Source: Eledone cirrhosa
Lineage: Eukaryota
DNA: 64,000 nt
NCBI GenBank assembly: GCA_964016885.1
Contig: OZ024745.1
Coordinates: 40,734,001-40,798,000, forward strand
Reading direction: 5' to 3'
Numbering within the stretch: position 1 is the first letter of the stretch; each line of letters opens with the position of its first letter. Made by a program: the position numbers and the translations under genes. Below are positions 24,650-64,000 of this stretch, piece by piece. Under the pieces are notes generated by a model. That model made no database searches. It worked only from the letters and a program-made list of their open reading frames with translations, and was not told the origin of the DNA.

Positions 24650-26728
24650 TTATGTAATATTCTGCTTGTAGCGGGAAAAAAGGGTTTTAGTTCTGTGACG
24701 GCAGAATAATGTTCGTTCAATTCTGTTATTCAGCAGTTACTTCTTGTGTGTGATTATGTAATAAATCTCAAGATTGCACAATTTGCAGAAATTTTGGCTC
24801 CTGGAAAAGCTCTGGGTTTTAGCTAATTTTTCCCATTTTAGGGTAAACTTTTGATTGCTATCCCTGAGCGTCCAAGCTTTTTCTGCTAAAGTTGTTACAT
24901 TTCTTTGGCTCTGGTGTTTTATTGAGTAAGAATGCCTATACAATCGAGATTTAAACGATGTTGCCGTTGATCCCACGTAATACCACTCGTTGCCTCCGGA
25001 TTTAATGGTACACTTATAAATAATATTTTTTTCCAGGCAGTTATTGCCGAGGGGGCAGTTGTCAGGATAGGTGCAGTTACAGTTGTGTACGTTGGGTTTT
25101 CTCTGGAGTAGTATTGCGGACGAACTTAGGTGTGGTTTATTTATGTTCTGTAGTGTATTGTCTACTGTTTTTTTGGGGTTCTTTGTACTTAAGTTCTTAG
25201 TGTTTTCGTTTAACCTTCTAGTATTGATCTTTTTTATGTGTTGTTCAAGGTTTAACGCTGTAGAGTATGACAGTCTTATAGTGGTAGGGTTTAGGATTTT
25301 GTGGTATTTGTGTGATGTGGGAAAATGTCTTTTAATTATTTTAAAGAAGAGTACTGGTAAATTTGTACTAATGGAGCTATTGTATTCGGGGTTATACCAT
25401 AAGTACTCTTTGCATCGCTTTCTATTAGTTTTGTTTGTTGGTTTACTGGTGTGCATACTATGGTAGTAAGTGTGGTTTGGTGTTGTGTTATTATATCTAC
25501 CTATGTGGGATTTATTTTGGGTGTTTTGATTGTTCCCATCTATGTACTCTATTTTGTTGAGGTAGCCTGCTTTACTAAGGGCGTTATCGTAGTACTCGGC
25601 GTGTTCCTTAAATACTTGTATGTTAGAAGATAGACCCGAGATTCTAAGGGAAATATTTTTAGGGATAGATTTAATTATAGAGATGGGGTGGTTAGACCCA
25701 ACATTTACGTATTTGAGATTTTCATTCAATTTATGAAACGGTTTAATCAAACCAGAGTTTAAATTGAGTGTGACATCCAGGAAGTTAACTACTTTAAGGT
25801 TGTATTCATATGTTATAGTTAGTCCTATTTCGAGTAGTAGTTTTCTTATATCTTTGCGTAGTTTTTCTAGTTTTTGGTTATTAAGGTTTTTAGCTAGGAG
25901 GAGAACATCGTCGCGGTATATTCCGCCGTGGAGATTGCTGAATTTTTCCTGGAGTCTAAAGGCGATAAATAACCCCACAATATCAGTTATTTCCGCCGAA
26001 TCGTTAGAGCCCATTGTTATGTCAAAGTTAGAGGGTCTATCTTTACGTACCCAATAACTGTTCTCAAATTTGACTATAGTTTTCCTAGCTTCTAATATAA
26101 TCTTAATTTCATCGTTTGTAAGGTCGGAGTTATCCTTAGCAAACTTAATGGCTCTATTCAAAGTTTCAGGTGATATCGATGAGTAATATTCATCGATATC
26201 AAACTGGATAAACTTAGATTTATTCTTATTGCTAATGCTATTAAACCATCTTATTGCTTCTTGGGTCTTCCCCCAGAGTTTAATGTTAACCTTAGCCTTA
26301 ATTTGGGGGATGATTCTATCTAAGATATATTTGCTTATTTTACCTATATCTGATTTAGAGGGGCAGATTAATCTAATTTTAGGGTCATTATCAAAGTTTA
26401 CCTTGTGGTCCTTAAGATTGAAAGTGGGTACCGCCGGTAAGAGTGGTCCTGTCCTATCTTCGATTCCGAGATTTTTCACTATTTCGCATGCCTCATCATT
26501 GATGTGCTTAAGGGTTACTTCACTCGTTTTTCTATATTTTTTATGTAATTCTTTTCGAATGAAGTTGTTGTATGTAGTGCAATCCATAGTGTACAGGTTT
26601 GATGTTTTGTCCGCTTTTACTACAATTCCTTTGGTGTTTTTAAGGTCGTCCAGTAGTTTTTTTATATCTTTCTGTAATTTGCTGTTGGTGTTGCGTCCTT
26701 TGAATTTAATTTTAAGGATTAAGTTCAT
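24650..26728 (-). pseudogene. PLE RT-GIY-YIG polyprotein (663-aa ORF; premature TAA at 24737, frame continues LLNNRIERTLFCRH to ~24650)
   Basis: KADKTSNLY, FDIDEYYSSI, ITMGS, IYRDD, NFLDVTL, SNHP, CNC...CPL...C linker, IIYKC..YYVGST..FKSR..RH. Confidence 0.9.
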
Positions 26729-26794
26729 AAGGTCCTGCTCAAATGCATCTAATATATATATATATAAAATGCATCTAATATATATATATATAAA

Positions 26795-26900
26795 AGAAGA
26801 AATTAAAAGATGGTTAAAGAAGTTCCATATATTTTATTATGCGCATTTCGAAAACATCATCCTGGGACAAAAATTATATTCACATCATATAAAATAAGGT
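26795..26900 (-). mobile_element. pLTR remnant with degenerate HHR (same family as the 44611 palindrome)
   Basis: aaagatggttaaag.agttccat.tattttattatgcgcatttc is shared with 44618; the core has decayed to ATGATGT. Confidence 0.65.
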
Positions 26901-27420: not shown

Positions 27421-27421
<1 letters not shown>

Positions 27422-27590
27422 GTAATTCCGGGTTGTATCGGAGTAACCACAGTAAGTAAGGTACTCAATACATAGCAGAGTATAAAAGTTTTATATAGAT
27501 GAGATTCTACAGGACTAGAACTGTTTCATTCATTAGAAATCATCCTGATGATTTCTAATGAATGAAACAGTTCTAGTCCTGTAGATCTCA

Positions 27591-27598
<8 letters not shown>
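27421..27598. mobile_element. Mini fold-back pLTR remnant (palindrome 27492-27598, tail 27421-27491) with partial HHR
   Basis: Arms around a 2-nt loop at 27545-27546; CTGATGA-tttctaatgaat-GAAA-cag-TT on the + strand; TA flanks. Confidence 0.7.
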
Positions 27599-27694: not shown

Positions 27695-27890
27695 TGTGAG
27701 AAAAACCACAGACCCTCCATCTCAACTCTACTTTTGAAAAGCAGAACTGCGAAACCAAATAAATATATATATTTTAAAAAAATAAGACTCCAGTTGCATT
27801 TTTGATTTCATTTTTTTTTCATTATACTTTCACTCGGTAGGACACCTCGGTTAATTTTTAATTTTGTAAAAAAAAACATCACTTTTTTCT
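27695..27890 (+). mobile_element. Solo pLTR of the Neptune-like family at 46.9-51.7 kb
   Basis: Aligns by eye to 51515-51725, with small deletions inside the HHR. Confidence 0.85.
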
Positions 27891-39925: not shown

Positions 39926-40426
39926 TAGGGGAACTATTTCTAAATTTTACCATCTATATTTAAGTTCTCTTGCTTGCTATTTGATTTTTTTTTTGGCAAT
40001 GCATCAATGTATATATATATATATATATATTGTTATATTTATGGAGGGTCATGTTGTTATAATATTTGTTTCTTCTTTTGGCACAAGGCCAGCAATTACC
40101 CAGTGCATTATTGGTACTTTATTTAATCAAGATTTTGATATGTAATCTAGTATTGAAACAAGTATTTTATATTTTTAACTGATGGTTAAACAATGATAAC
40201 CATTGATTTCCAGCTAAATTAACTATAGGTCTATGAAATATACGTGAGTGAAAACCAACCCAAACCAAACTGAGTGTGTTCTATTATACATTTCTGGCAA
40301 TATTTTAACTTTGCCTTTCATCCTACGGGGTCGATTAAATAAAGTACCAGTAATGCACTGGGTAATTGCTAGCCTTGTGCCAAAAGAAGAAACAAATATT
40401 ATAACAACATGACCCTCCATAAATAT

Positions 40427-40466
<40 letters not shown>

Positions 40467-40546
40467 TGATGCATTGCCAAAAAAAAAATCAAATAGCAAG
40501 CAAGAGAACTTAAATATAGACGGTAAAATTTAGAAATAGTTCCCCT
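39926..40546. repeat. ~200-bp inverted duplication (39926-40128 / 40333-40546) containing a SINE 3' part fused to a PLE terminus
   Basis: Near-identical reverse-complement arms; the ORF track shows the same peptide on both strands. Confidence 0.9.
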
Positions 40547-40782: not shown

Positions 40783-40865
40783 AATAATTTTGAGATAGAG
40801 CCCTCGTGATGTCTGCTCTAATCGGATTAGAGCAAACATCACGAGCGCTCTATCTGAAAATTATT
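40783..40865. repeat. ~40-bp-arm imperfect palindrome inside a TA-flanked ~400-bp insert
   Basis: aataatttt..gatagagc.ctcgtgatgt.tgctctaatc g gattagagca.acatcacgag.gctctatc..aaaattatt. Confidence 0.85.
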
Positions 40866-42485: not shown

Positions 42486-43137
42486 AAAACGATAAACGGA
42501 AAAAATGAAACGAAATTTCATTTCCCACTCTTAGTACGGCTGTTACTTAAATATAAGTATGTACACGTACATACATATATGTATACAGACGTACAGTAGT
42601 ATGTATATATATATATACATACATGCACACATATATATATGTACGTATGGATTCATATATATATATACATACTACTGTACGTCTGTATACATATATGTAT
42701 GTACGTGTACATATTTATATTTAAGTAACAGCCGTACTAAGAGAGAGAAATGAAATTTCGTTTCATTTTTTTCCGTTTATCGTTTTCGGTGCACCCGGCC
42801 GATTAACCCAGTCGATATGCAAATTGGGCTTCTCAGTTGTTAATATTCATAAGGTAAGTATATACGTTCAACAATCTGGCAGGAAGGTATACGTTGCTGA
42901 CGATAGCTAATAAGCTTGAAACTAGTACAGCGTTCCTTTGTCAGTGTTGAACAAACGAGCAACGATGGTTGCTGGACACTACGGCTTAATACCGGATGTT
43001 TGTTTAGAAACACATCGAGCATCATAATAAATGTTCGGTGAATCCATACGTACATATATATATGTGTGCATGTATGTATATATATATATACATACTACTG
43101 TACGTCTGTATACATATATGTATGTAGACATACTTAT
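42486..43137. repeat. Compound fold-back: arms 42486-~42615 / ~42656-42786, plus an inverted copy of ~42550-42655 at 43041-43137
   Basis: Direct reverse-complement matches. Confidence 0.85.
42891..42933 (+). ncRNA. Type I minimal hammerhead ribozyme
   Basis: acgttg-CTGACGA-t agct aata agct t-GAAA-ctag-TA-cagcgt; palindromic helix III. Confidence 0.8.
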
Positions 43138-44547: not shown

Positions 44548-44550
44548 GTA

Positions 44551-44610
<60 letters not shown>

Positions 44611-44614
<4 letters not shown>

Positions 44615-45028
44615 ATCAAAAGATGGTTAAAGGAGTTCCATGTATTTTATTATGCGCATTTCAAAAACAAACATCATCATGCAATAATATTTGTGTTTTC
44701 ATCAGATAAAACAGGAGGACATGATATGAAGGCTAAAAAACACTTGTGGATAGTGCAGTTTTAAATCAACATATGTTGATTTAAAACTGCACTATCCACA
44801 AGTGTTGTTTAGCCTTCATATCATGTCCTCCTGTTTTATCTGATGAAAACACAAATATTATTGCATGATGATGTTTGTTTTTGAAATGCGCATAATAAAA
44901 TACATGGAACTCCTTTAACCATCTTTTGATCTTATATATTATGTATACTCCAGTCCTACAAACTGTAGAGTGCTCCTTATCCGATATCTGCGTTGCTTTA
45001 TTGTACTACAATAAAACTCACCTCCTAC
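44611..45028. mobile_element. Palindromic pLTR-only insert (324-bp palindrome 44611-44934, ~90-nt tail)
   Basis: Centre at 44772/44773, no loop, one visible mismatch; HHR on both strands; TA flanks. Confidence 0.88.
44833..44901 (+). ncRNA. Type I hammerhead ribozyme (mirror copy 44644-44712 on -)
   Basis: gttttat-CTGATGA-[long helix II]-GAAA-tgcgca-TA-ataaaat. Confidence 0.8.
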
Positions 45029-45057
45029 ATATATATATATATATATATACATATATT

Positions 45058-45121
<64 letters not shown>

Positions 45122-45294
45122 TTTATATATATATACATATATATATATACATACATATATTTATATATATATATATATACATATATTTATATATATATAT
45201 ACATATATATATATACATATATGTATATATACATATATATATATACATATATACATATATATATATACATATATATATACATATATTTATATGT

Positions 45295-46500
45295 AAATAT
45301 CTTTAAGTCGTTTGGAAGCCTCGACAATCCAAATGGGTAAATCTCCGGGTAACAAGATCCGGTGGTGGAGAGAGAGATGTAAGTGGGTGTACGTTGAGAT
45401 ACGTGGTGTGTATGAGATGTGTAGAAGAATGAAGGAAAGAGTATAAAGGATAAAATAAAATAACAACACGAGAGAGAGTTACCTTGGGAGAGATTTAATA
45501 GTCCCTATATATTTCTGATTCACATCCATCAACTGGGGGTTTTCCGGGGTGGGGGAAAGGTTGTCTGTCGGACAAGTGCGAAACGCGTCCTCCGCTGTAT
45601 GTTGTTTTGAATATTTGAGGTATTCGGCAGAGCGCGCGTGCGCGTGAAATGGGGTCGGTCGGGCAGAGGTCAGCGGCCGAATGAGGGAGTGGGGTGGCGC
45701 TAGCTGTCAGTCCATTCTCTGCCTGTTTGTTAACTGTTACTGTGTGTGTGTGTGCGTGTGTTGTTGTCTCGCTTGAGTGTGTGTGTGTGTGCGTGTGTTG
45801 TTGCCTTGTTCCTCTGTATTGGCAGTTTAGTATGTTCGTATGGTGGAATGCTACTGTGTGTGTGTGCGTCTGTGTGTGTGTAGTTGTCTCGTTTGTGTGT
45901 GTGTGTATGCGTGTGTGCTGCATCGTTTGTTAGCTTAAACCAGCGATCTCATTTCGCTTCTCTCTGATCGGTTGTTTATTTGCGGTTGCAAGCGCTTCCT
46001 TGATACGTAACGTGCCGACGTTTCTTTCAGTCGCTAGAATTGTGACAATGGGCCTTCCGTCTTTGTTTCCGCATTTGTCTATGTGTTTCCGGAAAGACGA
46101 GGCCCTGGTTTTAGTGTGTTCCTTGATCCGGATGTGCAAAGGTCGGATTATGCTACCTATGTAGTATTGGTTGAACCTGTCACATTCTATCTTATACACG
46201 ACGTATGTGCGTAGGCAACAGTTCGCATGGCGTAACGGGCAGTCTCTGAGGGAGCATGTGTCAGTAGATTTCCCGGGTTTCATGGAGAGGCATCTTCGCA
46301 GGGAGGGGCCCGAGTGGGCCAGGTGGATGTCGAGGCCCTCCCTCCGTATAGCCTTGCGGATAGCGTTGGTGGTATTCTCGCCCAGGTGTAGCATTTTAAG
46401 GAAGCACATGCCTTGGGTGCCTCTCTGTCTCTTGCGTCTGGTGTGTCCTATTCTGTCTGTGATCGAGGTAGGGTGCTCGTTCGTCTCCAGCACCTCGATA
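45295..46500 (-). mobile_element. Penelope-like element 3, 3' fragment (GIY-YIG region + 3' UTR)
   Basis: CSLRDCP...C..TYVVYKIEC..QYYIGSIIRPLHIRIKEH..LRIKEAL (45930-46500); CA-rich UTR; TA flanks. Confidence 0.82.
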
Positions 46501-46548
46501 TACACATATATTTATATATATATACATATATTTATATATATATACATA

Positions 46549-46590
<42 letters not shown>

Positions 46591-46596
<6 letters not shown>

Positions 46597-46878
46597 TGTA
46601 ATAAACAACATAAGGCAATTATTCCATTTACCAGTAGGTTTCTTAAAAGCAAAAGATTTTGCTTTCAATCCTCAGAATGAAAAAATCCAAATTCAATAAA
46701 CAGACCAGCATTTTTTTCATTCTGAGGATCGAAAGCAAAATCTTTTGCTTTTAAGAAACCACTGGTAAATGGAATAATTGCCTTATGCTGTTTATTACAT
46801 AACTATTAAGCTCTGTTACCTATATAGAGCACTCTTTTTTCCTGGACTTTTCCGACGGAATTACTTCATTCACACACA
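46591..46878. mobile_element. Fold-back pLTR-only insert (arms 46591-46686 / 46710-46805, ~70-nt tail)
   Basis: Inverted arms visible; HHR on both strands; TA flanks. Confidence 0.85.
46715..46774 (+). ncRNA. Type I hammerhead ribozyme (mirror copy 46622-46682 on -)
   Basis: tttcatt-CTGAGGA-tcgaaagcaaaa tc ttttgcttttaa-GAAA-ccactgg-TA-aatggaa. Confidence 0.82.
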
Positions 46879-47087
46879 TATATATATATAAAGAAAAAGA
46901 GATGAAATCGAAAATGCAACTGAAGTCTTATTTTTTTTTTAAATATATATATTTATTTGGTTCCTTTACCGGTTTCGCAGTTCTTCTGCTTTTCAAAAGG
47001 TGATTTGAGATGGAGGGTCTGTGGTTTTTCTCACATTGTAAAAAAAACCTCACTTTCTAATATATACCCACCACACGAAGACCGAAA

Positions 47088-48290
47088 ATGCCACCAAAGT
47101 CTCAACAAAACAACAACTCACTGAACCAGGACATCTTAAATGAACTCAAAGAGATTTCCTCTAAACTCTCAATTTTGACCAACAAAGTGGACCAAATACA
47201 CATCTATAAAAAAGGACCCCACGAAGAAACAGAAAATACCCAAGAGACGAATATTACTCCAGTATTAACTAAGCTAATCGAAACCATTGAAACAGCAATG
47301 CTCCAAAAGCTTGAACAACCGTTAGAACCCAATCTACGAGATGTCCACTCAGTGAAAAACACCCTAATCAACATATGGACTCAAAAGCTCACAGCCCGCA
47401 AATTCGCCCTTTGGAATCTCCTAAAAAATAATGGCAAGGCAGACATATATGAAAAGTGGCTAAACTCTACCCCAATCATCCTCCCAAAAAAACTCCAAAT
47501 AAAACCCATCCCGAATGAACCAGAAAACCAACAAAGACTTAGGGAAAAGATGGCATTGGAAAAATTTAAAACAGAAATAGAACTGTTGCGATTAAGAGCC
47601 AACTCCAACGAAGAAAAATTCAAGTCACTCGACCAACAGATGGACACAGAAATCTCAAAGCACTCTGAAGGCCTACTCTACAAAAAAACCCTAAAACTTT
47701 GGAAAGAAAACTGTGAGGATGAAGAACTCACATCCCTCCAGCGATGGGAAAAAAACGCCACCTGGTTCAACAACTACGAAATGGACTTCAAAAATGAACA
47801 ACATACAAGTAACCCATTTTTAAAACAAACTAAAACTCACACACCACATGTACAACAAATAACAAAAAAAGTAACAAAACGTCCAACATACCCCCAGCAA
47901 AACTATAACGATAATCCCAGAAACCATAGACAAAACTATAACCCTACTAACAAAAACCAAAGATCCCCGAACACAAGGCAGGACCTGATCCGCAGATCAC
48001 AACCCACACAAAACCTATCTCAAAACCGTAGACCCCTGCCCACACAGAGCCTGTTCCAAAACCATAGATCCCAACCCACACAAAGGAACCAAATCTACAA
48101 CTCGGACTATCAACAAACCGAACCTCAATACGTCCGAAACTTCTATACAAGACCACACAACAACAGGGGAAATACCATTAGATATAATAATACCAATGAA
48201 AAAACATTCCAGAAAAATCATTTTTTAGACCAAGGCTACAGGACTCACGACACCCGGTGGCACAAAACGATTTTGAAAAACCGAAAATAA
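47088..48290 (+). CDS. PLE upstream ORF1 (400 aa; helical/coiled-coil-like, Q/N/R-rich C-terminus)
   Basis: Uninterrupted ATG-initiated ORF inside the element; overlaps ORF2. Confidence 0.8.
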   Translation: MPPKSQQNNNSLNQDILNELKEISSKLSILTNKVDQIHIYKKGPHEETENTQETNITPVLTKLIETIETAMLQKLEQPLEPNLRDVHSVKNTLINIWTQKLTARKFALWNLLKNNGKADIYEKWLNSTPIILPKKLQIKPIPNEPENQQRLREKMALEKFKTEIELLRLRANSNEEKFKSLDQQMDTEISKHSEGLLYKKTLKLWKENCEDEELTSLQRWEKNATWFNNYEMDFKNEQHTSNPFLKQTKTHTPHVQQITKKVTKRPTYPQQNYNDNPRNHRQNYNPTNKNQRSPNTRQDLIRRSQPTQNLSQNRRPLPTQSLFQNHRSQPTQRNQIYNSDYQQTEPQYVRNFYTRPHNNRGNTIRYNNTNEKTFQKNHFLDQGYRTHDTRWHKTILKNRK

Positions 48291-50527
48291 TTAACATTTC
48301 AAATACAAACCTCTCAGCCCAACAGGTAAAAATTCTCTCCAAAGGTCTGAAATTCACACCAACACCACAATATCCTAATCCCAACGAGATAAATGACGAT
48401 ATCTCACACTTATGTAGAAAATTACGTCTCACAGAGGAATTCTTTGACAAGGAGAATAACGACGAATCAATTGTACGGAATAAAAGCAGCTACAACCCAA
48501 CAAAAGGTAGAAACAGAGTTCTGGACAAATTTTGTGACCACATAGCTACCTTCCCATACCATGAACTACCGCAACCTAAACCCAAACCCAACACAAGTCG
48601 AAGGGAATGGGAGATTATCCATGAACTAAAAAACAATACGGACATTGTAATTAAGGAAGCGGACAAGGGAAGTACTGTTGTCATTATGGAGGCTGAAAAA
48701 TATAAAAATTCTATGTTCTCTCTCTTACAAAATACTAATTACTATGAAAGAGTAAAAAACTACCAGCAATCAAAAATAATGACCACATTAAACACACTGA
48801 TTTATCGATACCAGGAAGACCTAACTAAAAAGGAACGCGATTATTTAACAAATTTTGAATACAAAACCAGCAACCTTTACGGACTTCCGAAGATCCACAA
48901 ATGTAAAATAATCAACGATGCCTGTAAACAATCCACCTCAGCCTGCGTGAACACACAATACCCCACAGACATTAAATTAAGACCAATTGTAGCGGGCCCA
49001 CAATGTGAAACACACAGATTGAGCAACTTTATAGACATACTACTGAAACCAATACTGAAACACATACCAAGCCTTGTAAGAGACGATCTGGACCTCTTAA
49101 ACCACCTCCCCAAACATGTCAACAACGACACTATTATTGTGTCTTTCGATGTAGTGAATCTCTACACAACGATCCCACACCAATACGGACTAGAAGCAAT
49201 AGGATTCTGGCTAGAGAAATATCCCAATGAGATACCTGACAGAATAGAAAAAAGCTTCATTACCGAGGGATTAAAATTCATCCTACAGAACAACTTTTTT
49301 GATTTCGATGGCAATACTTACAAGCAAATATCGGGGACTGCGATGGGCACAAAAGTCGCTCCAACTTATGCCAACTCAGTCATGGCATACTTAGAAGTCC
49401 AGATATATGAACAGTCCAAATCAAAATACGGATTGAACTTCCACAAATATTTATCAGAGAATTGGAAACGCTACTTGGATGATTGCCTCATTCTTTGGTC
49501 CCACACACTCGACCAACTGAAGGATTTCAAAAACTTAATAAACGTCATCAATAACCACATCCAATTCACAATGGAATACAGCCAAGATCAACTCCCATTT
49601 CTGGACATCTTAATCACAAAAAAAGACACAAATATCGAAACTGACATACACTACAAACCAACAGATTCCAAACAATATCTGCTATTCACCTCCAACCATC
49701 CAAAGCACACGAAGACGAACATTCCTTTTAACCTAGCAAGAAGAATTTGCACAATTGTCTCCAATTATGAAACGCGAAATAAAAGACTTCAAGAATTAAA
49801 GGAAATTCTACTTGAGAGAGAGTACCCACTATTACTAATAAATAATGGAATAGAAAGGGCTAAAGCAATAGGCATTGAAGAATTACGGAAACAGAAACAA
49901 ATTAAAGGTACGTCCAATATTCTATCATATATCTCAACACACAACCCAAGAAATGCGGAAGCTTACAACACTATTCACAATAACATCCCACTACTAAAAC
50001 AAAACCCAAGAATGAAAAAAGCCCTTGAAACACACAAAATAATCAAAAGCAAAAGACAACCAAAATCACTGAAAACATTACTCACCAATGCCAAATTACC
50101 TACCACAAACCCACAACCAAGTATCAAAAAATGTGGTCGCTCTAATTGTGGAACCTGCACTCACCTCATTGAAGGCAACACGTATACATTTAAATCAGGA
50201 CAAAATTTTACTGTAAAAAATCACTTCACTTGCTCATCAAAAAATCTAATTTATGCCATTAAATGTAAAGGATGCAATGAAGATTATATAGGACAAGCTA
50301 AACTCACACTCAGAAACAGAATGACAGTTCATCGCCAACAATTACGAGATCCAACCACGAGACAGATACCGCTAAGTGCACATCTAGACATTTGCGCAAG
50401 TAATAAGACACCCAAATTCCAAGTCTTCCCATTTTACCTTTGCGCTAACAATACAAAAGAACAAATGCGAATAAATAAGGAAAATATGTTTATTCAAAAA
50501 TATAGACCAACATTAAATAAGGTTTAA
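48257..50527 (+). CDS. PLE reverse transcriptase + GIY-YIG endonuclease (frame open from 48200; no ATG at its start)
   Basis: KGLKFTPTP, IKEADKG, YGLPKIHK, LRPIVAG, FDVVNLYT, GTAMG, RYLDD, FLDI, SNHP, CGRSNCGTC, NLIY..C..C..DYIGQ..RMTVH. Confidence 0.95.
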   Translation: MAQNDFEKPKIINISNTNLSAQQVKILSKGLKFTPTPQYPNPNEINDDISHLCRKLRLTEEFFDKENNDESIVRNKSSYNPTKGRNRVLDKFCDHIATFPYHELPQPKPKPNTSRREWEIIHELKNNTDIVIKEADKGSTVVIMEAEKYKNSMFSLLQNTNYYERVKNYQQSKIMTTLNTLIYRYQEDLTKKERDYLTNFEYKTSNLYGLPKIHKCKIINDACKQSTSACVNTQYPTDIKLRPIVAGPQCETHRLSNFIDILLKPILKHIPSLVRDDLDLLNHLPKHVNNDTIIVSFDVVNLYTTIPHQYGLEAIGFWLEKYPNEIPDRIEKSFITEGLKFILQNNFFDFDGNTYKQISGTAMGTKVAPTYANSVMAYLEVQIYEQSKSKYGLNFHKYLSENWKRYLDDCLILWSHTLDQLKDFKNLINVINNHIQFTMEYSQDQLPFLDILITKKDTNIETDIHYKPTDSKQYLLFTSNHPKHTKTNIPFNLARRICTIVSNYETRNKRLQELKEILLEREYPLLLINNGIERAKAIGIEELRKQKQIKGTSNILSYISTHNPRNAEAYNTIHNNIPLLKQNPRMKKALETHKIIKSKRQPKSLKTLLTNAKLPTTNPQPSIKKCGRSNCGTCTHLIEGNTYTFKSGQNFTVKNHFTCSSKNLIYAIKCKGCNEDYIGQAKLTLRNRMTVHRQQLRDPTTRQIPLSAHLDICASNKTPKFQVFPFYLCANNTKEQMRINKENMFIQKYRPTLNKV

Positions 50528-51550
50528 TATACATTATGTCAACACCACAATATGACATACACACACACACATAACACCTTCTACTTTAGAAAATAAAAAC
50601 CCGAACTAAATAAACCTTAACATACGTTTGCACTGGCAATACAACAGCAAACACGAAAAAGTCAGGAAAATATGTTCATTCAAAAATATTCCTACTAAAG
50701 GAATCACTTTCCTACACACACAATATATATATATATATATTCTCTTCATCTTAACATGCTAACCATACTCCCACACACATAACACCCATACACACACATA
50801 ACAACCCCCACACCTACAACTCCCTCCCCATTTCTACTAATAGAACCACTTTCCTACACACATATATATATAAACACACAAAAAATATATATTCTCTCCA
50901 TCTTAACATACTCGCACACACACACATAACACCCATATACACACACACACACAACTCCCTCCCCCATCTCTACTAATAGAATCATCTTCCAATACACACA
51001 TACACACACACACGCACATATACACACACACAAGCACACAAATAAACACATATCTTCAGTCTCAATAGAAAATCTGAACTCTGACACCTGAACTCTGACA
51101 GCTGCCAATATTCACTGAACCAGAACATTTCTCCCAATCCCTTTTCCCTTGACGACTATCTCTCCATTGTCATAACATTCACTATAAAGACTACAGAATA
51201 GTTTTCCAAATAAGGGCACAAAAATGTAATGAAAACTTGTTCACGTGACAGCCAAATTTCATTTATAACCAACCCAAAAAAAGCCTTCGTGAGCCTCATT
51301 TTTCAAAGTAAAAAGAAATTCAAACACTCATATATGAAAAATCAACCTGTGACAACCCCCCCCCCCCCCGTCTCTTATTTGAAGAACTCTTGTAACGCGA
51401 ACTGGCGCGAAATTTATTATAATTATTGACAAACCAATCAAATTACTTCTCGAAAAACCTGGCTTTCGAGCCACTTTTTCCATATAAAACAAGTAACAGT
51501 TAGAGACCAACCAGATGTGAGAAAAACCACAGACCCTCCATCTCAACTCA

Positions 51551-51588
51551 CCTTTTGAAAAGCAGAAGAACTGCGAAACCGGTAAAGG
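51551..51588 (+). ncRNA. Minimal hammerhead ribozyme, U3-A8 core variant (mirror copy 46963-47000 on -)
   Basis: cctt-TTGAAAA-gcag aagaa ctgc-GAAA-ccgg-TA-aagg. Confidence 0.72.
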
Positions 51589-51719
51589 AACCAAATAAAT
51601 ATATATATTTAAAAAAAAAATAAGACTTCAGTTGCATTTTCGATTTCATCTCTTTTTCTTTATACTTCCACTCGTGTAGGACACCTCGGTTATTTTTCAT
51701 TTTGTAAAAAAAACCTCAC

Positions 51720-52748: not shown

Positions 52749-55700
52749 TTATACTTCTCTTAGGTCAGTGTTGTTTGTTTGGGTGTTGTTGTTACTCCAT
52801 TCATTCTTTCTGTTTAGCCTTGGTCTTCTAATTTCTATTTCACTGGCCTCTCTGATTTGCCTATCTGCTGGGTCATTTCTATGTTTAGATATTATTCTAA
52901 TGTCTATGTTGTCTATGTTACCGTCATGTTGTTGTCTAGCATGTTCGCATATTACTGACCCGTTTTTTCGTCCTTTTAGTTCCTTCCAGTGTTGGTCTAT
53001 GCTTTCACCTATGCTACGAACTGTTTCACCTATGTATGTTGTTGTCATGTTTCTGCAAGTACCCTCTGTACATCTTTTGCTATAAACTACGTTTCTAGTT
53101 TTACAGTTTATCCGGGGGTTCACCTTACATATGATACATTTCCTATTGGTACAGTGGGTTTTCTTAAAAGGGTAAGTTTTGCTGATCAGGGATTTTATGG
53201 TGGTTCCTGGCTTTTCTACCACCTTTATTTTTAAGTGGGTCTTTCTCAGGGCCTTTCTACACTGGTTAACTAATTTCCCTCCAGGGGTAGCGTCCACAAA
53301 CATCACACTCTGGTTGTCGTACCATGAGGTGGCTTTCCCTATCTTATGTCTAGCCCTATCTAAGCTATTCCATGATTTGCTCCTGTATAATGGGCAAATT
53401 CCTTTCATGTCCAGTTTTATGAGGGTCTTATACTTCTCCATGTCTCCTTCGTATACTCTGACTCTGTCTCTTTGGTTGTAGCCAGAGAACTGCATGCGGT
53501 TGATGAAGTCTTGGATGTGTCTTTTCATTTCTGTTGGGTCGCACATGCGGGACACATTCTTCATCACTCGTACCAAATCTGCGATCAGAATATTAAACTT
53601 AGCACTACTGGACATTGCTGAGTTTTTGAGTATCAGGTATTTGGAGGCCATGGGTTTAGCATAGTGTGAGTGGAGAATTTGGGCTCTCTCGTCTATAGTG
53701 TTAATCCAGAGTTCCGTGTCTAATACAGGTAGTCTATTGTTAGGGTGTTTGGAAGGGAAGTCGATAGTTACAGTTATACTCTGGTGTATGGAATTAGCTA
53801 TCTGCTGGATGCTTTCCATCGTGCTACGTCCTAAATCAAACTTGTTAGTGCTCTCTAGTGGAGGTGTTCTTATAACTATATTGATATCGTCTACATAACG
53901 AGAGTGCATGATGAGGTCTATGGAGCTCTCATTAAGGAGATCTTTAAGTCTCCTTTCCCACCATACCATGAAAAGGTTGGCAACATCACCAGCTATGCTG
54001 ACGCCGATGGCTGCTCCCTCATTTTGGGTGTAGATCTTCTCGTTGAACTTAAATATGTGGCCCTTTAGGGTAGTTTTGATACTAACCCCTATTGCATGTG
54101 CGACCATTTTTCTTACCTGATCATTGTTTTGGGGGGTCCGTATAGCTTTGGTCCACCCAATCCACCTTCCCATGGGAGTCTTTTTTGCCATTGAGGTTAT
54201 GGTGGGGGTCTACCTCTTATAGGTCTACTAGGGCAGAAACGTCTAAGGTAATGGCTGTCTAGGTAGTCAGTGTCGTAGGTAAGTCTAAGTAGGAGGCCCA
54301 GTTCGTCTCTGTCGACGTCGCAGAACTCCACCTCACTCTCAATGATCATCTCCACACATCTTTTCACAGCAAAATCAATGTTAATGGATGGGTGCAGTGA
54401 TACCATATCCATACTGCCTATTATGCAGCTGGATAGGTTCCTGTTTTTGTTGCACTCGCTGATTCTGTTGAGAAGGTCCTCTGTACTGTCACATACATCT
54501 GGGGACATCTTGATTATGGGGCGTATAACCATTGAGAGGAAGTAGGAGATCCTGTAGTTGCTAGCTATATTAGCTCCGCATACGGGTCCTGTTGGTGGTC
54601 CTGTTTTCGGGTCGTCGACTGTCTTGTGGTCTTTGCGGAGCCCATACAAGGGTGGTATGCCATTGTTAGACGCGTGGAGGTTGTTGGCAGTGCGTCTGCT
54701 TGGCTTTAGGATGTCAGTCCACATCATCATGTGAGCGTTGAGGATTTGCTCTCTTCCATCGTGTGTTTGTTGTGCAATTTCGCTCGTGTTGGTGATGTGG
54801 GGTTGCATAGCCTTGATGTAGTTCGGCATGCTATCTATTGACATCCTACCACACTTATCCGTGGGTAGACATACTACCTCACCATCCCTTGTGCGCTGCT
54901 TGAGGCTAAACAAGCCTTCTACAGGTTTCCTCCCAAGTTGTTGGGCCTCTGGTCTGCTCTGTCTCTTAGTATACCTGTCTACTATTTGTCTAATCTTATT
55001 TCTAGCTATGGTGAACTGTGCCCCTGTCTCATCATCTATTTGTTGTGGTATGCAAACTCTTTTATTAAAGGGTAACCTCGTAGGATAGATATTACCCATC
55101 TTATATGTTTTGTCAGCTGGGTTGAAAAATAGTTTCTCTAAGGGGTTGTCATTATATCTATCGTCATATTTGTGTGTGTAGCTATTATTGTTATCATGGT
55201 GGTTGTTGTTGTTTCTATCATTAGCATTATTATTATTGTTATGATTGCTAGATGTATTGTTGTTTACTTCACCGTTATTGTTGTTGTTGTTACTGTTATC
55301 TCTACCATTGTGGTTGTTACTTTTATTATGTTTCTTGTTTTTTGTTGTGTCTATCATTGATGTTGCTACAAGTACTATTTTCTTATTACCACTGTGGTTA
55401 TTGTTGTTGTTGTTCGTATTGTTACCGTTATTACTACTGTGGTCGCTGCTGCTGTGTCTGTGGTTAATGTTTCTATTATTATTATTATTGTGGTTGTTGT
55501 TGTTCTGTCTATCGTTAGTATTATTACCATTATTACTATTTCTCACTTTCCTGCTATTGTTATTGTTATGACTGTTATTTCTATACTCAGAGTTATTGTT
55601 TATATTACTACTACCGTTATTATTGTTGTTGTTGTTGTTTACCTTTGCATTCCAACGTATTTTTGTGAAACACTTTTCCAGCTCCGTTTTGCACTCCATA

Positions 55701-56359
55701 GGGTTAATCTTTTTGTAGATGGCAAATTTTGGTGGTAGCCGCAGGATTTGTTGTTCTTGTTTACTGATTAAAGTGTTCCCATAAATATTTACTATGTGGT
55801 CATTGGTAAATTCTTCCGGTAGTTTTACATCATTCATACGGATATTGTCGATGTTATCTGGGTATTTTTGAGAATATTCAATTTTCCTTTTTTGTATTTT
55901 TTTCTTTTTCATCCATTCTAATTTCTTATTGAAATGCCTATTGCATTCGTTTCGGGCGTATTTCGTTTCACGTCGGATGACGCTCATGAAGTTATCCCTC
56001 TCGTTTGGTGTGGTGAAATTTCGGACATCCTTACCGTTAATGCGTTTCTGTTTGTTAAGTTCGTTGACTTTTGTGTATGTTGTTCGTTTCATATTAACTG
56101 TTATTGTGTGTTTTAGTCGTTTAGCTTGTGTTTTGTTCAATAATAAATTATTTACTTGTTTTGATATGTTTGTTGTGTATGTTTTGGAGGAAACACAGTG
56201 TTTTAAGAAGCGGATTTGTTCTGTTGTTATTGTAGTTTTTATATAACAGAAAACAGTGTCTTTCAATAACCTTTCAGCTTGGCACAAGCTAATGCCATAG
56301 CGGCGATGAATTAGTTTTGCGAGGTTTTTTATATGAAATCGTGTGTCGAAACAAATATT
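52749..56359 (-). pseudogene. PLE RT-GIY-YIG polyprotein with Asn-rich insert; 1-nt frameshift at ~54205
   Basis: LRLPPKFA, PTDKCGR, LYGLRKDHK, SMDMVSL, GAAIG, RYVDD, YIGET; RGRPPP* vs RGRPPTITSMAKKT in element 2; frame open upstream to the junction at ~56359. Confidence 0.9.
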
Positions 56360-56377
56360 GTACAGGAGTAAATATAG

Positions 56378-56977
56378 TACAGGAGCAAATCATGGAATAG
56401 CTTAGATAGGGCTAGATATAAGATAGGGAAAGCCACCTCATGGTACGACAACAAGAGATACCAGAGTGTCATGTTTGTGGACGCTACCCCTGGAGGGAAA
56501 TTAGCGAACCAATGTAGAAAAGCCCTGAGAAAGACCCACTTAAAAATAAAGGTGGTAGAAAAGCCAGGAACCACCATAAAATCCCTGATCAGCAAAACCT
56601 ACCCTTTTAAGAAAACCCACTGTACCAATAGGGAATGTATCATATGTAAGGTGAACCTCCGGATAAACTGTAACACTAGAAACGTAGTCTATAGCATAAG
56701 ATGTACAGAGGGTACTTGCAGAAACATGACAACAACATACATAGGTGAGACAGCTCGTAGCATAGGTGAAAGGATAGACCAACACTGGGGGGAACTAAAA
56801 GGACGAAAAAACGGGTCAGTACTATGCGAACATGCTAGACAACAACATGACGGTAACATAGACAACATAGAAATTAGAATAATATCTAAACATAGAAATG
56901 ACCCAGCAGATAGGCAAATCAGAGAGGCCAGTGAAATAGAAATTAGAAGACCAAGGCTAGACAGAAAGAATGAATGA
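56378..56977 (+). pseudogene. Duplicated GIY-YIG region in the inverted arm
   Basis: 168-aa ORF nearly identical to the C-terminus of 52749-54191. Confidence 0.9.
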
Positions 56978-60578: not shown

Positions 60579-61750
60579 CTGTCCAATATTGGTGTCACTG
60601 GAAAGCTGCTGCAGTGGATCAAGAGCTTCCTGTCAAACAGAACCCAACATGTTGTAGTTGAGGGAGTCAAATCAAGCCCAGCAAAAGTCAGTAGTGGAGT
60701 CCCACAAGGCACTGTGTTGGGCCCACTTCTCTTCATCATCTATATTAATGACATCACTGACATCATCAAACACAGCAACATTAAAATTTTCGCTGATGAT
60801 TCCAAGCTCCAAAAGGTCATCAATGGCGTGGATGACCGGATAAGCCTTCAGTCAGACCTACTGGCTGTTACCCAATGGGCAGAAAAGAACAACATGTTAC
60901 TGAACGAAGACAAATTCGAACTGATCCACTTTGGAAAAGAGGATGCTCTGAAACTCCCGTACTCCCTTCCCTCCGGGGAAACTCTCGTGGCATCTAACAA
61001 CATCAGAGACTTGGGAGTAACCGTGGACAGCAACATAAGCTGGACCACGCATATAAGCAGCAAAGTTGACATGGCCCGCAGAATGTGTTCCTGGATCCTC
61101 AGAACCTTCCAGTCGAGAGATTCCCGCACCATTATCCTTCTCTTCTCTACTTTCGCCCGACCACACCTTGAATACTGTTGTCCACTGTGGTCTCCCCACA
61201 CGAAACAAAGTATCATGAAACTTGAAGCTCCTCAAAGGGCAATCACGAAAAAGATAGATGGCATGTCAGACCTTGACTACTGGGGTCGATTGGAAAATCT
61301 GAAACTTTACTCACTCCAACGTCGCCGTGAGCGTTATATTATCTGCATGATGTGGAAAATGTTCCATCATCACTGCCCAAATGATGTTGGCATCGCCTTC
61401 AAGATACACCCAAGGCTTGGGCCCCGTGCTATCCGTCCCATTCAAAAATCTAAATCGCAACTCATAACAACAATACGGCACAATTATTTCACCTCAATCG
61501 GCCCTGCTCTCTTCAACATCACACCAGGACACGTCAAAACAGAAACTGACCACACAAAATTCAAGAAGTCTTTGGACAAATTCCTCCAAGTAATCCCGGA
61601 CAAACCACCCACACCCGGATATGTCTCCGCAAACAGTAATTCTCTTCTCGAATGGGCCATGGTGCCCAAATCCTGAATTGAAAGACTTCGCCAGGTGGTG
61701 CTATTAAGTTAGACATGGCCTGGGCCAATACTGGCCAAAACATTTCAAAG
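60579..61750 (+). mobile_element. CR1-like LINE, 5'-truncated (RT C-terminal ORF to 61676)
   Basis: SGVPQGTVLGPLLF, FADDSK, RDLGV, LEYCCPLWSP, LYSLQRRRERY. Confidence 0.92.
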
Positions 61751-62299: not shown

Positions 62300-62720
62300 A
62301 TTGTTATACTTTGGGAGGGTCATGTTGCCAATAAGAAACACTCGCACCAGTTGCTTTCACTTCAATTTAATTTAATATATATTTATAAATTTACAAATTT
62401 TTCTCAGAAAAAATGGCGTAGGATAGAAGAAAGGAAAGGCACAGAAACGAAGAAAGAAATCCCAGTCTGAAGAGGTCACAGAGTGTGTGACGAAAGAACT
62501 ATGACTATATATATATACACAACTATCTGGTTGTGGAACCAACCAACCAACCAGAAATTTATAAATTTGTAAATTTATAAATATATAATAAATTAAATTG
62601 AAGTGAAAGCAACTGGTGCGTGTGTTTCTTATTGGCAACATGACCCTCCCAAAGTATAACAATATCGGTTTCAACACACGATTTCAGATAAAGAATCTTG
62701 CTAAACAAATTCAGAAACGA
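62300..62720 (+). mobile_element. pLTR-only insert of the element-2 family (inverted arm 62300-62400 + direct pLTR with tail)
   Basis: Matches ~35480-35800 and its reverse complement. Confidence 0.9.
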
Positions 62721-62764: not shown

Positions 62765-64000
62765 TAGCACCACCTGGCGAAGTCTTTCAATTCAGGATTT
62801 GGGCACCATGGCCCATTCGAGAAGAGAATTACTGTTTGCGGAGACATATCCGGGTGTGGGTGGTTTGTCCGGGATTACTTGGAGGAATTTGTCCAAAGAC
62901 TTCTTGAATTTTGTGTGGTCAGTTTCTGTTTTGACGTGTCCTGGTGTGATGTTGAAGAGAGCAGGGCCGATTGAGGTGAAATAATTGTGCCGTATTGTTG
63001 TTATGAGTTGCGATTTAGATTTTTGAATGGGACGGATAGCACGGGGCCCAAGCCTTGGGTGTATCTTGAAGGCGATGCCAACATCATTTGGGCAGTGATG
63101 ATGGAACATTTTCCACATCATGCAGATAATATAACGCTCACGGCGACGTTGGAGTGAGTAAAGTTTCAGGTTTTCTAGTCGACCCCAGTAGTCAAGGTCT
63201 GACATGCCATCTTTCTTTTTCGTGATTACCCTTTGAGGAGCTTCAAGTTTCATGATACTTTGTTTCGTGTGGGGAGACCACAGTGGACAACAGTATTCAA
63301 GGTGTGGTCGGGCAAAAGTAGAGAAGAGGAGGATAATGGTGTGGGAATCTCTCGATTGGAAGGTTCTGAGGATCCATGAACACATTCTGCGGGCCATGTC
63401 AACTTTGCTGCTTATATGCGTGGCCCAGCTTATGTTGCTGTCCACGGTTACTCCCAAGTCTCTGATGTTGTTAGATGCCACGAGAGTTTCCCCGGAGGGA
63501 AGGGAGTACGGGAGTTTCAGAGCATCCTCTTTTCCAAAGTGGATCAGTTCGAATTTGTCTTCGTTCAGTAACATGTTGTTCTTTTCTGCCCATTGGGTAA
63601 CAGCCAGTAGGTCTGACTGAAGGCTTATCCGGTCATCCACGCCATTGATGACCTTTTGGAGCTTGGAATCATCAGCGAAAATTTTAATGTTGCTGTGTTT
63701 GATGATGTCAGTGATGTCATTAATATAGATGATGAAGAGAAGTGGGCCCAACACAGTGCCTTGTGGGACCCCACTACTGACTTTGGCTGGGCTGGATTTG
63801 ACTCCTTCAACTACAACATGTTGGGTTCTATTTGACAGGAAGCTCTTGATCTACTGCAGCAGCTTTCCAGTTACACCAATATTGGACAGCTTTCTCAGTA
63901 GAATGTTATGATCAACCCTGTCAAAGGCCTTGCTGAAATCAAGGTAGATAACATCAGTGTTGGAACCCTCTCCCAAATCTCTCAAAATGTCATCAAAGTG
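62765..64000 (-). mobile_element. CR1-like LINE, second copy, runs off the window; TGG>TAG at 63851-63853
   Basis: Nearly identical protein to the + copy, plus YLDFSKAFDRVDH upstream. Confidence 0.92.

What the first reader, a model, noticed from the sequence alone, without database searches (positions are those of the whole stretch)
44611..46878. Protein-free palindromic inserts encoding a hammerhead on both strands
Seen: 44611-44934 (324-bp loopless palindrome) and 46591-46805 each carry a complete HHR in both orientations; 27492-27598 is a smaller case. They belong to three different families. Transcription in either direction gives a long hairpin that contains a ribozyme and its own antisense. 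Inference: minimal products of the two-ended integration that could silence the family (dsRNA, siRNA or ADAR substrate), or a non-autonomous mobile class of their own.
Basis: partly seen in the sequence, partly recalled or inferred. Interest (0 to 1): 0.7.

Follow-up and report, generated by a model that had tools for sequence, protein, structure and literature searches.

The report
Back-to-back Penelope retrotransposon leader stubs
These palindromes are back-to-back copies of the ribozyme-motif-bearing front end of three very abundant Penelope-type jumping genes, a layout already described, and they are likely by-products made when one RNA is copied from both cut ends of the target DNA, not a new self-copying element.

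Summary
The palindromes are real. 44611-44934 and 46591-46805 carry a hammerhead motif on each strand; 27492-27598 has the core on one strand only. They are head-to-head stubs of three Penelope-like retrotransposon families with Hydra-clade motifs (15,714, 4,021 and 28,397 exact motif matches). The centre of the first recurs at 747 loci, but not as an amplified unit: 37 such copies are rejected as one clade (AU p 3e-22), while the two arms of one insert differ by 1.4 bases against 9.4 between inserts. Arms stop at a sharp 5' boundary, likely the transcription start, and end at two fixed 3' sites. Likely mechanism: two target-primed cDNAs copied from one uncleaved RNA and joined by a 4-base microhomology. 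The layout is in print (PMC4209133, PMC3846280, PMC8557442); the two-primer reading fits PMC11167929 and differs from the published antisense self-priming idea. No RNA data: silencing, editing and cleavage are untested. Eight earlier notes of this scan report the same on other DNA of this genome.

The parts
44611..44774 (-). P1 left arm: family-1 leader +1 to +164, no tail, abuts a (TA)n array
44771..44934 (+). P1 right arm: family-1 leader +1 to +164
44771..44774 (.). P1 centre: 4-nt self-complementary ATAT shared by both arms; inferred RNA 5' end (+1) and microhomology of the join
44834..44900 (+). Type I hammerhead motif (stem I 6 bp, core 44840-44846 and 44883-44886, long stem II, 1-bp stem III with palindromic loop); predicted cut after 44894
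   Evidence: cleavage not tested
44645..44711 (-). Mirror hammerhead motif of P1
44935..45030 (+). P1 one-sided 96-nt tail (+165 to +260), then (TA)n
46591..46688 (-). P2 left arm (family 2), no tail, hammerhead motif about 46622-46682
46682..46805 (+). P2 right arm, starting in a 7-nt microhomology (46682-46688); hammerhead motif about 46715-46774, predicted cut after 46767
46806..46880 (+). P2 one-sided tail
27421..27544 (-). P3 left arm with tail (family 3); hammerhead core cut by the junction
27544..27598 (+). P3 right arm, no tail; core 27545-27567 present, stem I mostly lost
24737..26894 (-). Diverged relative of family 1 in the window: leader 80% like the P1 arm (26802-26894) ahead of a 698-aa frame with 47% identity to the family-1 protein

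Best explanation
The inserts are head-to-head pairs of the 5' leader of Penelope-like retrotransposons in (TA)n repeats, likely made when the element's enzyme primes two cDNAs, one from each end of the cut target, on one uncleaved RNA and the two cDNA ends are joined. Shown: parent elements, two fixed 3' ends (+164-170 and +258-260), one tail per insert, a sharp 5' boundary at +1, arms of one insert nearly identical, same-centre copies not one clade. Inferred: +1 is a capped transcription start; the 3' ends are the two reverse-transcription start sites; the join is microhomology end-joining, where ATAT annealing gives the loopless centre. Predicted: a read-through RNA folds into a long hairpin that blocks both ribozyme folds.
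For: Parents: L044 holds an 821-aa RT plus GIY-YIG-type frame upstream of the same leader and tail; families 2 and 3 flank similar frames. 3' ends of 100 of 100 unselected arms fall in two groups, 56 at +163 to +183 and 44 at +254 to +260; 37 of 37 full exact-centre inserts have one tail. 5' boundary: 4,125 of 12,962 arms leave the native sequence at the base after +1 (perfect palindromes excluded by the pattern); 28 of 100 arms end at -9 to +4; in family 3, 43 of the first 100 arms break at about +1 to +3 of an initiator-like site 30 nt after TATAAATA and 2 further upstream (hand count). One template: 1.35 differences within against 9.39 between inserts (n=37); for 37 of 44 arm ends at +1 whose partner mapped, 0 partners start upstream of +1. 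Two primings: 5 partners begin at +165, +170, +181, +211 and +238 opposite a tailless arm, so at least 3 share no sequence with it; the tail is on the shorter arm in L045 and L050 and on the longer in L044. Not a clade: AU p 3e-46 (11 vs 74) and 3e-22 (37 vs 34); 34 arm types among 37. Uncleaved template: 1 of 100 arms breaks at the predicted ribozyme cut. Cap hint: 11 of 24 junction inserts start with C (p 0.02 against 0.25), as do 8 of 8 listed rows at 44774 (table 5c). PMC11167929: a Penelope protein cuts and extends both strands from two internal RNA sites, and ribozyme mutants insert normally.
Against: No RNA or 5'-end data. 13 of 50 exact-centre loci have one arm that stops short or is internally deleted; snap-back synthesis or later deletion is needed for them. 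5 of 37 inserts differ between arms at a common subfamily site. 11 private variants are shared by both arms against 34 on one arm, so arm-to-arm conversion may add to the similarity. The genomic C excess (43 of 95, hand count) is not significant against C after TAT in the element (5 of 10 non-G), and the sample was enriched for non-G. Family 1 has no TATA box at -30; my initiator guess for family 2 failed, its breaks being fewer and about 10 nt further upstream. 7 of 44 partners did not map. L052 and L057 have identical arms at different loci, which allows occasional recopying.
Confidence: 0.72

Rival explanations
1. Snap-back: a single cDNA reaches the RNA 5' end, folds back on ATAT and copies itself; or self-priming on an antisense template as proposed for rotifer Penelope elements.
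For: Explains near-identical arms and the 13 of 50 loci with one short arm. PMC3846280 Discussion favours self-priming on an antisense template.
Against: Cannot give partners made only of tail opposite a tailless arm or a tail on the shorter arm, and gives no reason for the second arm to end at +164-170 in 37 of 37 full inserts.
Confidence: 0.15
2. The palindrome is a non-autonomous element copied as a unit (retrozyme- or MITE-like).
For: 747 and 150 loci share a centre; one identical pair, L052 and L057; label clustering is borderline (33 of 500 shuffles as low).
Against: One clade rejected; many centre variants around the same base; tail on either side of the asymmetric P3 and P2 centres; ends are not symmetric as in a MITE; no A-to-G excess among private variants (1 of 11 shared, 1 of 34 one-arm).
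Confidence: 0.07
3. +1 is a polymerase stall site or an RNA processing site, not a transcription start.
For: No TATA box in families 1 and 2; a purine-poor repeated 3' region lies just upstream in family 1.
Against: Single-base sharpness in family 1, TATA plus initiator spacing in family 3, extra C at the junctions, and partners never starting upstream.
Confidence: 0.06

Closest known systems
EN+ Penelope-like element insertion with inverted 5'-truncated copy and one-sided tail (PMC8557442 passages and Fig. 2 legend; PMC3846280 passages)
   Same: Head-to-head pLTRs, palindrome at the junction, tail at one end, (TA)n target
   Different: Here both copies are cut down to the leader, so no ORF remains; tails are about 75-96 nt, not 30-40; thousands of copies pile up at one 5' base
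Dual min-HHRs 100-700 bp apart on opposite strands in Schistosoma mansoni, linked to truncated PLEs (PMC4209133 passages)
   Same: Two type I hammerhead motifs on opposite strands, ORF-less, short stem III with palindromic loop
   Different: The passages seen note them in one sentence, with no junction mapping or mechanism
Hydra clade of PLEs, including Hydra-1_Obim (PMC8557442 section 11 and supplement hits)
   Same: RWK-like, DKT, CxCX5C, CxxC and CxH motifs, C-terminal endonuclease, canonical HHR, (TA)n target
   Different: The three motif probes were not found in that supplement (line breaks could hide them) and the listed Hydra-1_Obim HHR differs; no tree with reference proteins was built
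PAc Poseidon element in vitro (PMC11167929, parts 1-2 of 4)
   Same: Two internal RT start sites bounding the tail, both strands extended, ribozyme cleavage not needed
   Different: Other clade; the parts read do not explain inverted copies or place their centre at the transcription start
Non-LTR retrozymes (bioRxiv 10.64898/2026.07.22.740005, part 1 of 5)
   Same: ORF-less, type I HHR, derived from PLE pLTRs
   Different: Retrozymes are head-to-tail tandem units thought to copy by rolling circle; these are head-to-head and show no lineage of their own

Membership tests
EN+ Penelope-like element | Single ORF with RT and C-terminal GIY-YIG-type endonuclease tied to the leader | tested here: met
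   L044 821 aa with YRDD and YFG motifs; Pfam found 0 families for L044 and both L133 frames of note, and GIY-YIG at E 2e-4 for the family-3 frame, so the call rests on motifs
EN+ Penelope-like element | pLTR with hammerhead motif, in tandem or inverted arrangement | tested here: met
   Tandem in L048, L116; inverted in L044, L045, L049, L050
EN+ Penelope-like element | Optional one-sided tail | tested here: met
   37 of 37 full exact-centre inserts; 44 of 100 arms
Hydra clade | RWK and DKT motifs | tested here: met
   Family 1 RWT and DKT, family 2 RWK and DKT, family 3 RWR and DKT; definition
Hydra clade | CxCX5C linker, no CCHH, CxxC before E and CxH after N | tested here: met
   Seen in the three family proteins (family 3 has CMH, family 2 CPH)
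Hydra clade | Placement in the Hydra clade of an RT tree | not tested
   Reference proteins were seen only as supplement text
Type I hammerhead ribozyme | CUGANGA and GAAA core, UH site, stems I-III | tested here: met
   P1 and P2 on both strands; core varies 0.017 against 0.050 elsewhere in 72 distinct family-1 rows; the 6 frequent stem II variants keep pairing, 12 rare types (1-2 rows) break it, none is two-sided
Type I hammerhead ribozyme | Complete motif on both strands of P3 | tested here: not met
   Core on + strand only; stem I shortened
Type I hammerhead ribozyme | Match to an Rfam hammerhead model | tested here: not met
   None at gathering score or at E up to 10 for 44550-46900
Type I hammerhead ribozyme | Self-cleavage | not testable with these tools
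   Needs a bench assay; related motifs cut weakly, as dimers or with protein
Non-LTR retrozyme | Head-to-tail tandem units each with an HHR | tested here: not met
   Inserts are head-to-head pairs
Self-amplifying non-autonomous element | Same-structure copies form their own lineage | tested here: not met
   One clade rejected; tail side varies

The most novel reading that the evidence does not exclude
Penelope-like elements integrate by paired priming from both target ends on one capped RNA, so every mRNA leader can yield a palindromic stub; thousands of such stubs, read through from host genes, would make family-specific double-stranded RNA that limits the family, a brake built into the replication mechanism.
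Probability: 0.25. Interest if true: 0.65.

Novelty: new member of a known kind. Interest (0 to 1): 0.35.

Why it matters
How Penelope-like elements make their inverted copies is named as open in PMC8557442, and the one proposal I found in print is antisense self-priming. These stubs record the likely RNA start and both likely priming sites at base resolution in thousands of copies, which gives a direct test with the existing in vitro system. As an object the finding is ordinary repeat debris of a known layout; a silencing role would raise it but has no support here.

Tried and rejected
DNA search of the genome with the 160-nt arm returned nothing because common words are skipped; exact patterns were used instead. 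Direct-repeat search was swamped by (TA)n. RNA evidence: no RNA holder listed; both read-laying runs had only contigs of runs of unrecorded kind, so starts, expression and editing could not be judged. Target-site duplications could not be told from (TA)n in 37 inserts. The 'untemplated insert' count was dropped because the reference carried a variant near +1; it was redone. One search's arm table was empty (no coordinates in the files) and was redone, where 6 arms scored at -13 to -15 look like over-extended alignments and were not re-scored. One of the 37 rows (L249) was only 23% aligned. An initiator prediction for family 2 failed. An ADAR mark in re-inserted copies was sought and not found. 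Rfam microRNA matches reflect the hairpin alone. Paper searches for twin priming with Penelope, octopus, hairpin siRNA and cap-derived extra G gave nothing usable in the listings; the cap-G signature and the TATA and initiator consensus are recalled, not from a call. Subscription papers and bioRxiv supplements were not visible and may hold the two-primer model.

Full report
Setting. The window lies in a 3.0-Gb animal genome (G000:C5) and is packed with retroelement pieces between (TA)n arrays. The species was not determined here; an earlier scan note calls it an octopus (untested).

Observation. P1 (44611-44934) is a 324-bp loopless palindrome with one mismatch. Each arm has stem I (6 bp), CTGATGA, a long stem II, GAAA, a 1-bp stem III with a palindromic loop and a UA site. 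P2 (46591-46805) has two intact cores, but its arms are unequal: about 22 nt belong to the right arm only and the join is a 7-nt microhomology. P3 (27492-27598) has the core on the + strand only. Rfam does not recognise the motifs. In family 1 the core varies less than the rest (0.017 against 0.050 in 72 distinct rows) and the six frequent stem II variants keep pairing, with no two-sided change. The whole P1 hairpin is predicted at -266 kcal/mol against -15 for a 91-nt ribozyme segment, so in a read-through RNA both ribozyme folds would likely be blocked.

Parents. Exact 24-25-mers match 15,714, 4,021 and 28,397 times (arms, not inserts, and lower bounds). The listed matches often come as minus-then-plus pairs from 40 bp to several kb apart. 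Long pairs hold RT and endonuclease frames: L044 has 821 aa upstream of the family-1 leader and tail; L129, L130, L132 and L133 hold the family-2 frame and L134 and L135 the family-3 frame. All three show the motifs that PMC8557442 section 11 gives for the Hydra clade. In tandem copies the tail runs on into the 5' UTR and ORF (L048, L116), so the arm is the front end of the element's mRNA.

Shared centre. The exact 28-nt P1 centre occurs at 747 loci, the P3 centre at 150, the P2 centre at 3. Of the first 50 listed P1-centre loci, 37 have two full arms; these differ by 1.35 bases within an insert and 9.39 between inserts, show 34 arm types, and are rejected as one clade against 34 long or native-continuing arms (AU p 3e-22; 19 label changes against 22.5 shuffled, 33 of 500 shuffles as low). 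A first set gave the same (11 vs 74, p 3e-46). Among 15 of 150 P3-centre loci, several subfamilies appear and the tail lies left of the asymmetric centre in some and right in others; the same holds for the 3 P2-centre loci. The centre is therefore made again and again.

Why one base. Of 12,962 family-1 arms matched at the boundary, 4,125 leave the native sequence at the base after CAACATAT for a non-G base (the pattern's last letter excluded the perfect palindromes). Among all 100 first-listed arms, 28 end at -9 to +4, 22 further in and 50 run past. In family 3, 43 of the first 100 arms break at about +1 to +3 of an initiator-like site 30 nt after TATAAATA, and 2 further upstream (hand count; the site was picked after seeing 30 loci). 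Family 2 has a weaker boundary that missed my prediction. Junction inserts often begin with C, as expected if the polymerase copies the cap (recalled): 11 of 24 (p 0.02) and 8 of 8 listed rows in short-read contigs (8 more rows not shown). This is a hint, since C also follows TAT often in the element. Only 1 of 100 arms breaks at the predicted ribozyme cut, so the template was mostly uncleaved, in line with PMC11167929.

Two primings. 3' ends fall in two groups (56 and 44 of 100) and 37 of 37 full exact-centre inserts have one of each. For 44 arm ends at +1, 37 partners mapped and none starts upstream of +1, although about half of all arms run past it. Five partners start at +165 to +238 opposite a tailless arm; three of them share nothing with it and cannot be its fold-back copy. 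The tail is on the shorter arm in L045 and L050. Joins range from 4-nt and 2-nt microhomology to inserts of 1-42 nt, as expected for end-joining. Against a clean model: 13 of 50 exact-centre loci have one short or internally deleted arm, and 5 of 37 inserts differ between arms at a common variant site.

What is known. Inverted truncated copies with a one-sided tail (PMC8557442, passages, section 11 and supplement hits; PMC3846280, passages and Discussion) and dual hammerheads on opposite strands 100-700 bp apart (PMC4209133, passages) are in print. PMC11167929 (parts 1-2 of 4 and passages) supplies two RT start sites and extension of both strands. I found no paper placing the centre at the transcription start or invoking two primers. 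Eight earlier notes of this scan reach the same reading on other DNA of this genome; my reading was written down before that look-up, and they are not independent support.

Verdict. Real, mostly as described, and ordinary as an object: new members of a known kind. The independent-element idea is not supported; the silencing idea is untested (no RNA holder listed). The value lies in the testable two-primer mechanism. Interest 0.35.

Noticed in passing
window 45270-46511 (-): A separate truncated retroelement end with a GIY-YIG-like frame (45930-46511) sits between P1 and P2; a piece like its 3' region is captured at the junction of the family-1 insert L042.
   Followed up: no
window 46891-47036, 51515-51660, 27699-27885: A 146-bp repeat, 99% identical in inverted orientation, frames the two-ORF RT plus GIY-YIG element at 47061-50527; a third copy follows P3.
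   Followed up: no
window 62301-62400 and 62563-62662; 39928-40128 and 40333-40545; 40783-40865; 42486-42556 and 42715-42786: Further short inverted pairs in (TA)n, one with a hammerhead motif at 62467-62495.
   Followed up: no
window 60598-61701 and 62767-63870: 1.1-kb inverted pair, 98% identical, of an RT fragment (Pfam RVT_1) around the 62.3-kb insert.
   Followed up: no
window 54197-56389 (-): Frame with a long asparagine-rich stretch, resembling the N-rich inserts described for rotifer Penelope elements.
   Followed up: no
L175 (G000:C1:47574677): A family-1 junction continues into letters that resemble the family-3 tail, which may be a template jump between families.
   Followed up: no
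L085/L086 and L089/L090: A family-2 palindrome in a non-TA site seems flanked by a direct repeat of about 16 bp, a possible target-site duplication; the two loci share flanks and look like a segmental duplication.
   Followed up: no
L136:3320-4483 (-): An uninterrupted tubulin-like frame (recognised from memory) lies between two family-3 motifs; possibly a retrocopy.
   Followed up: no
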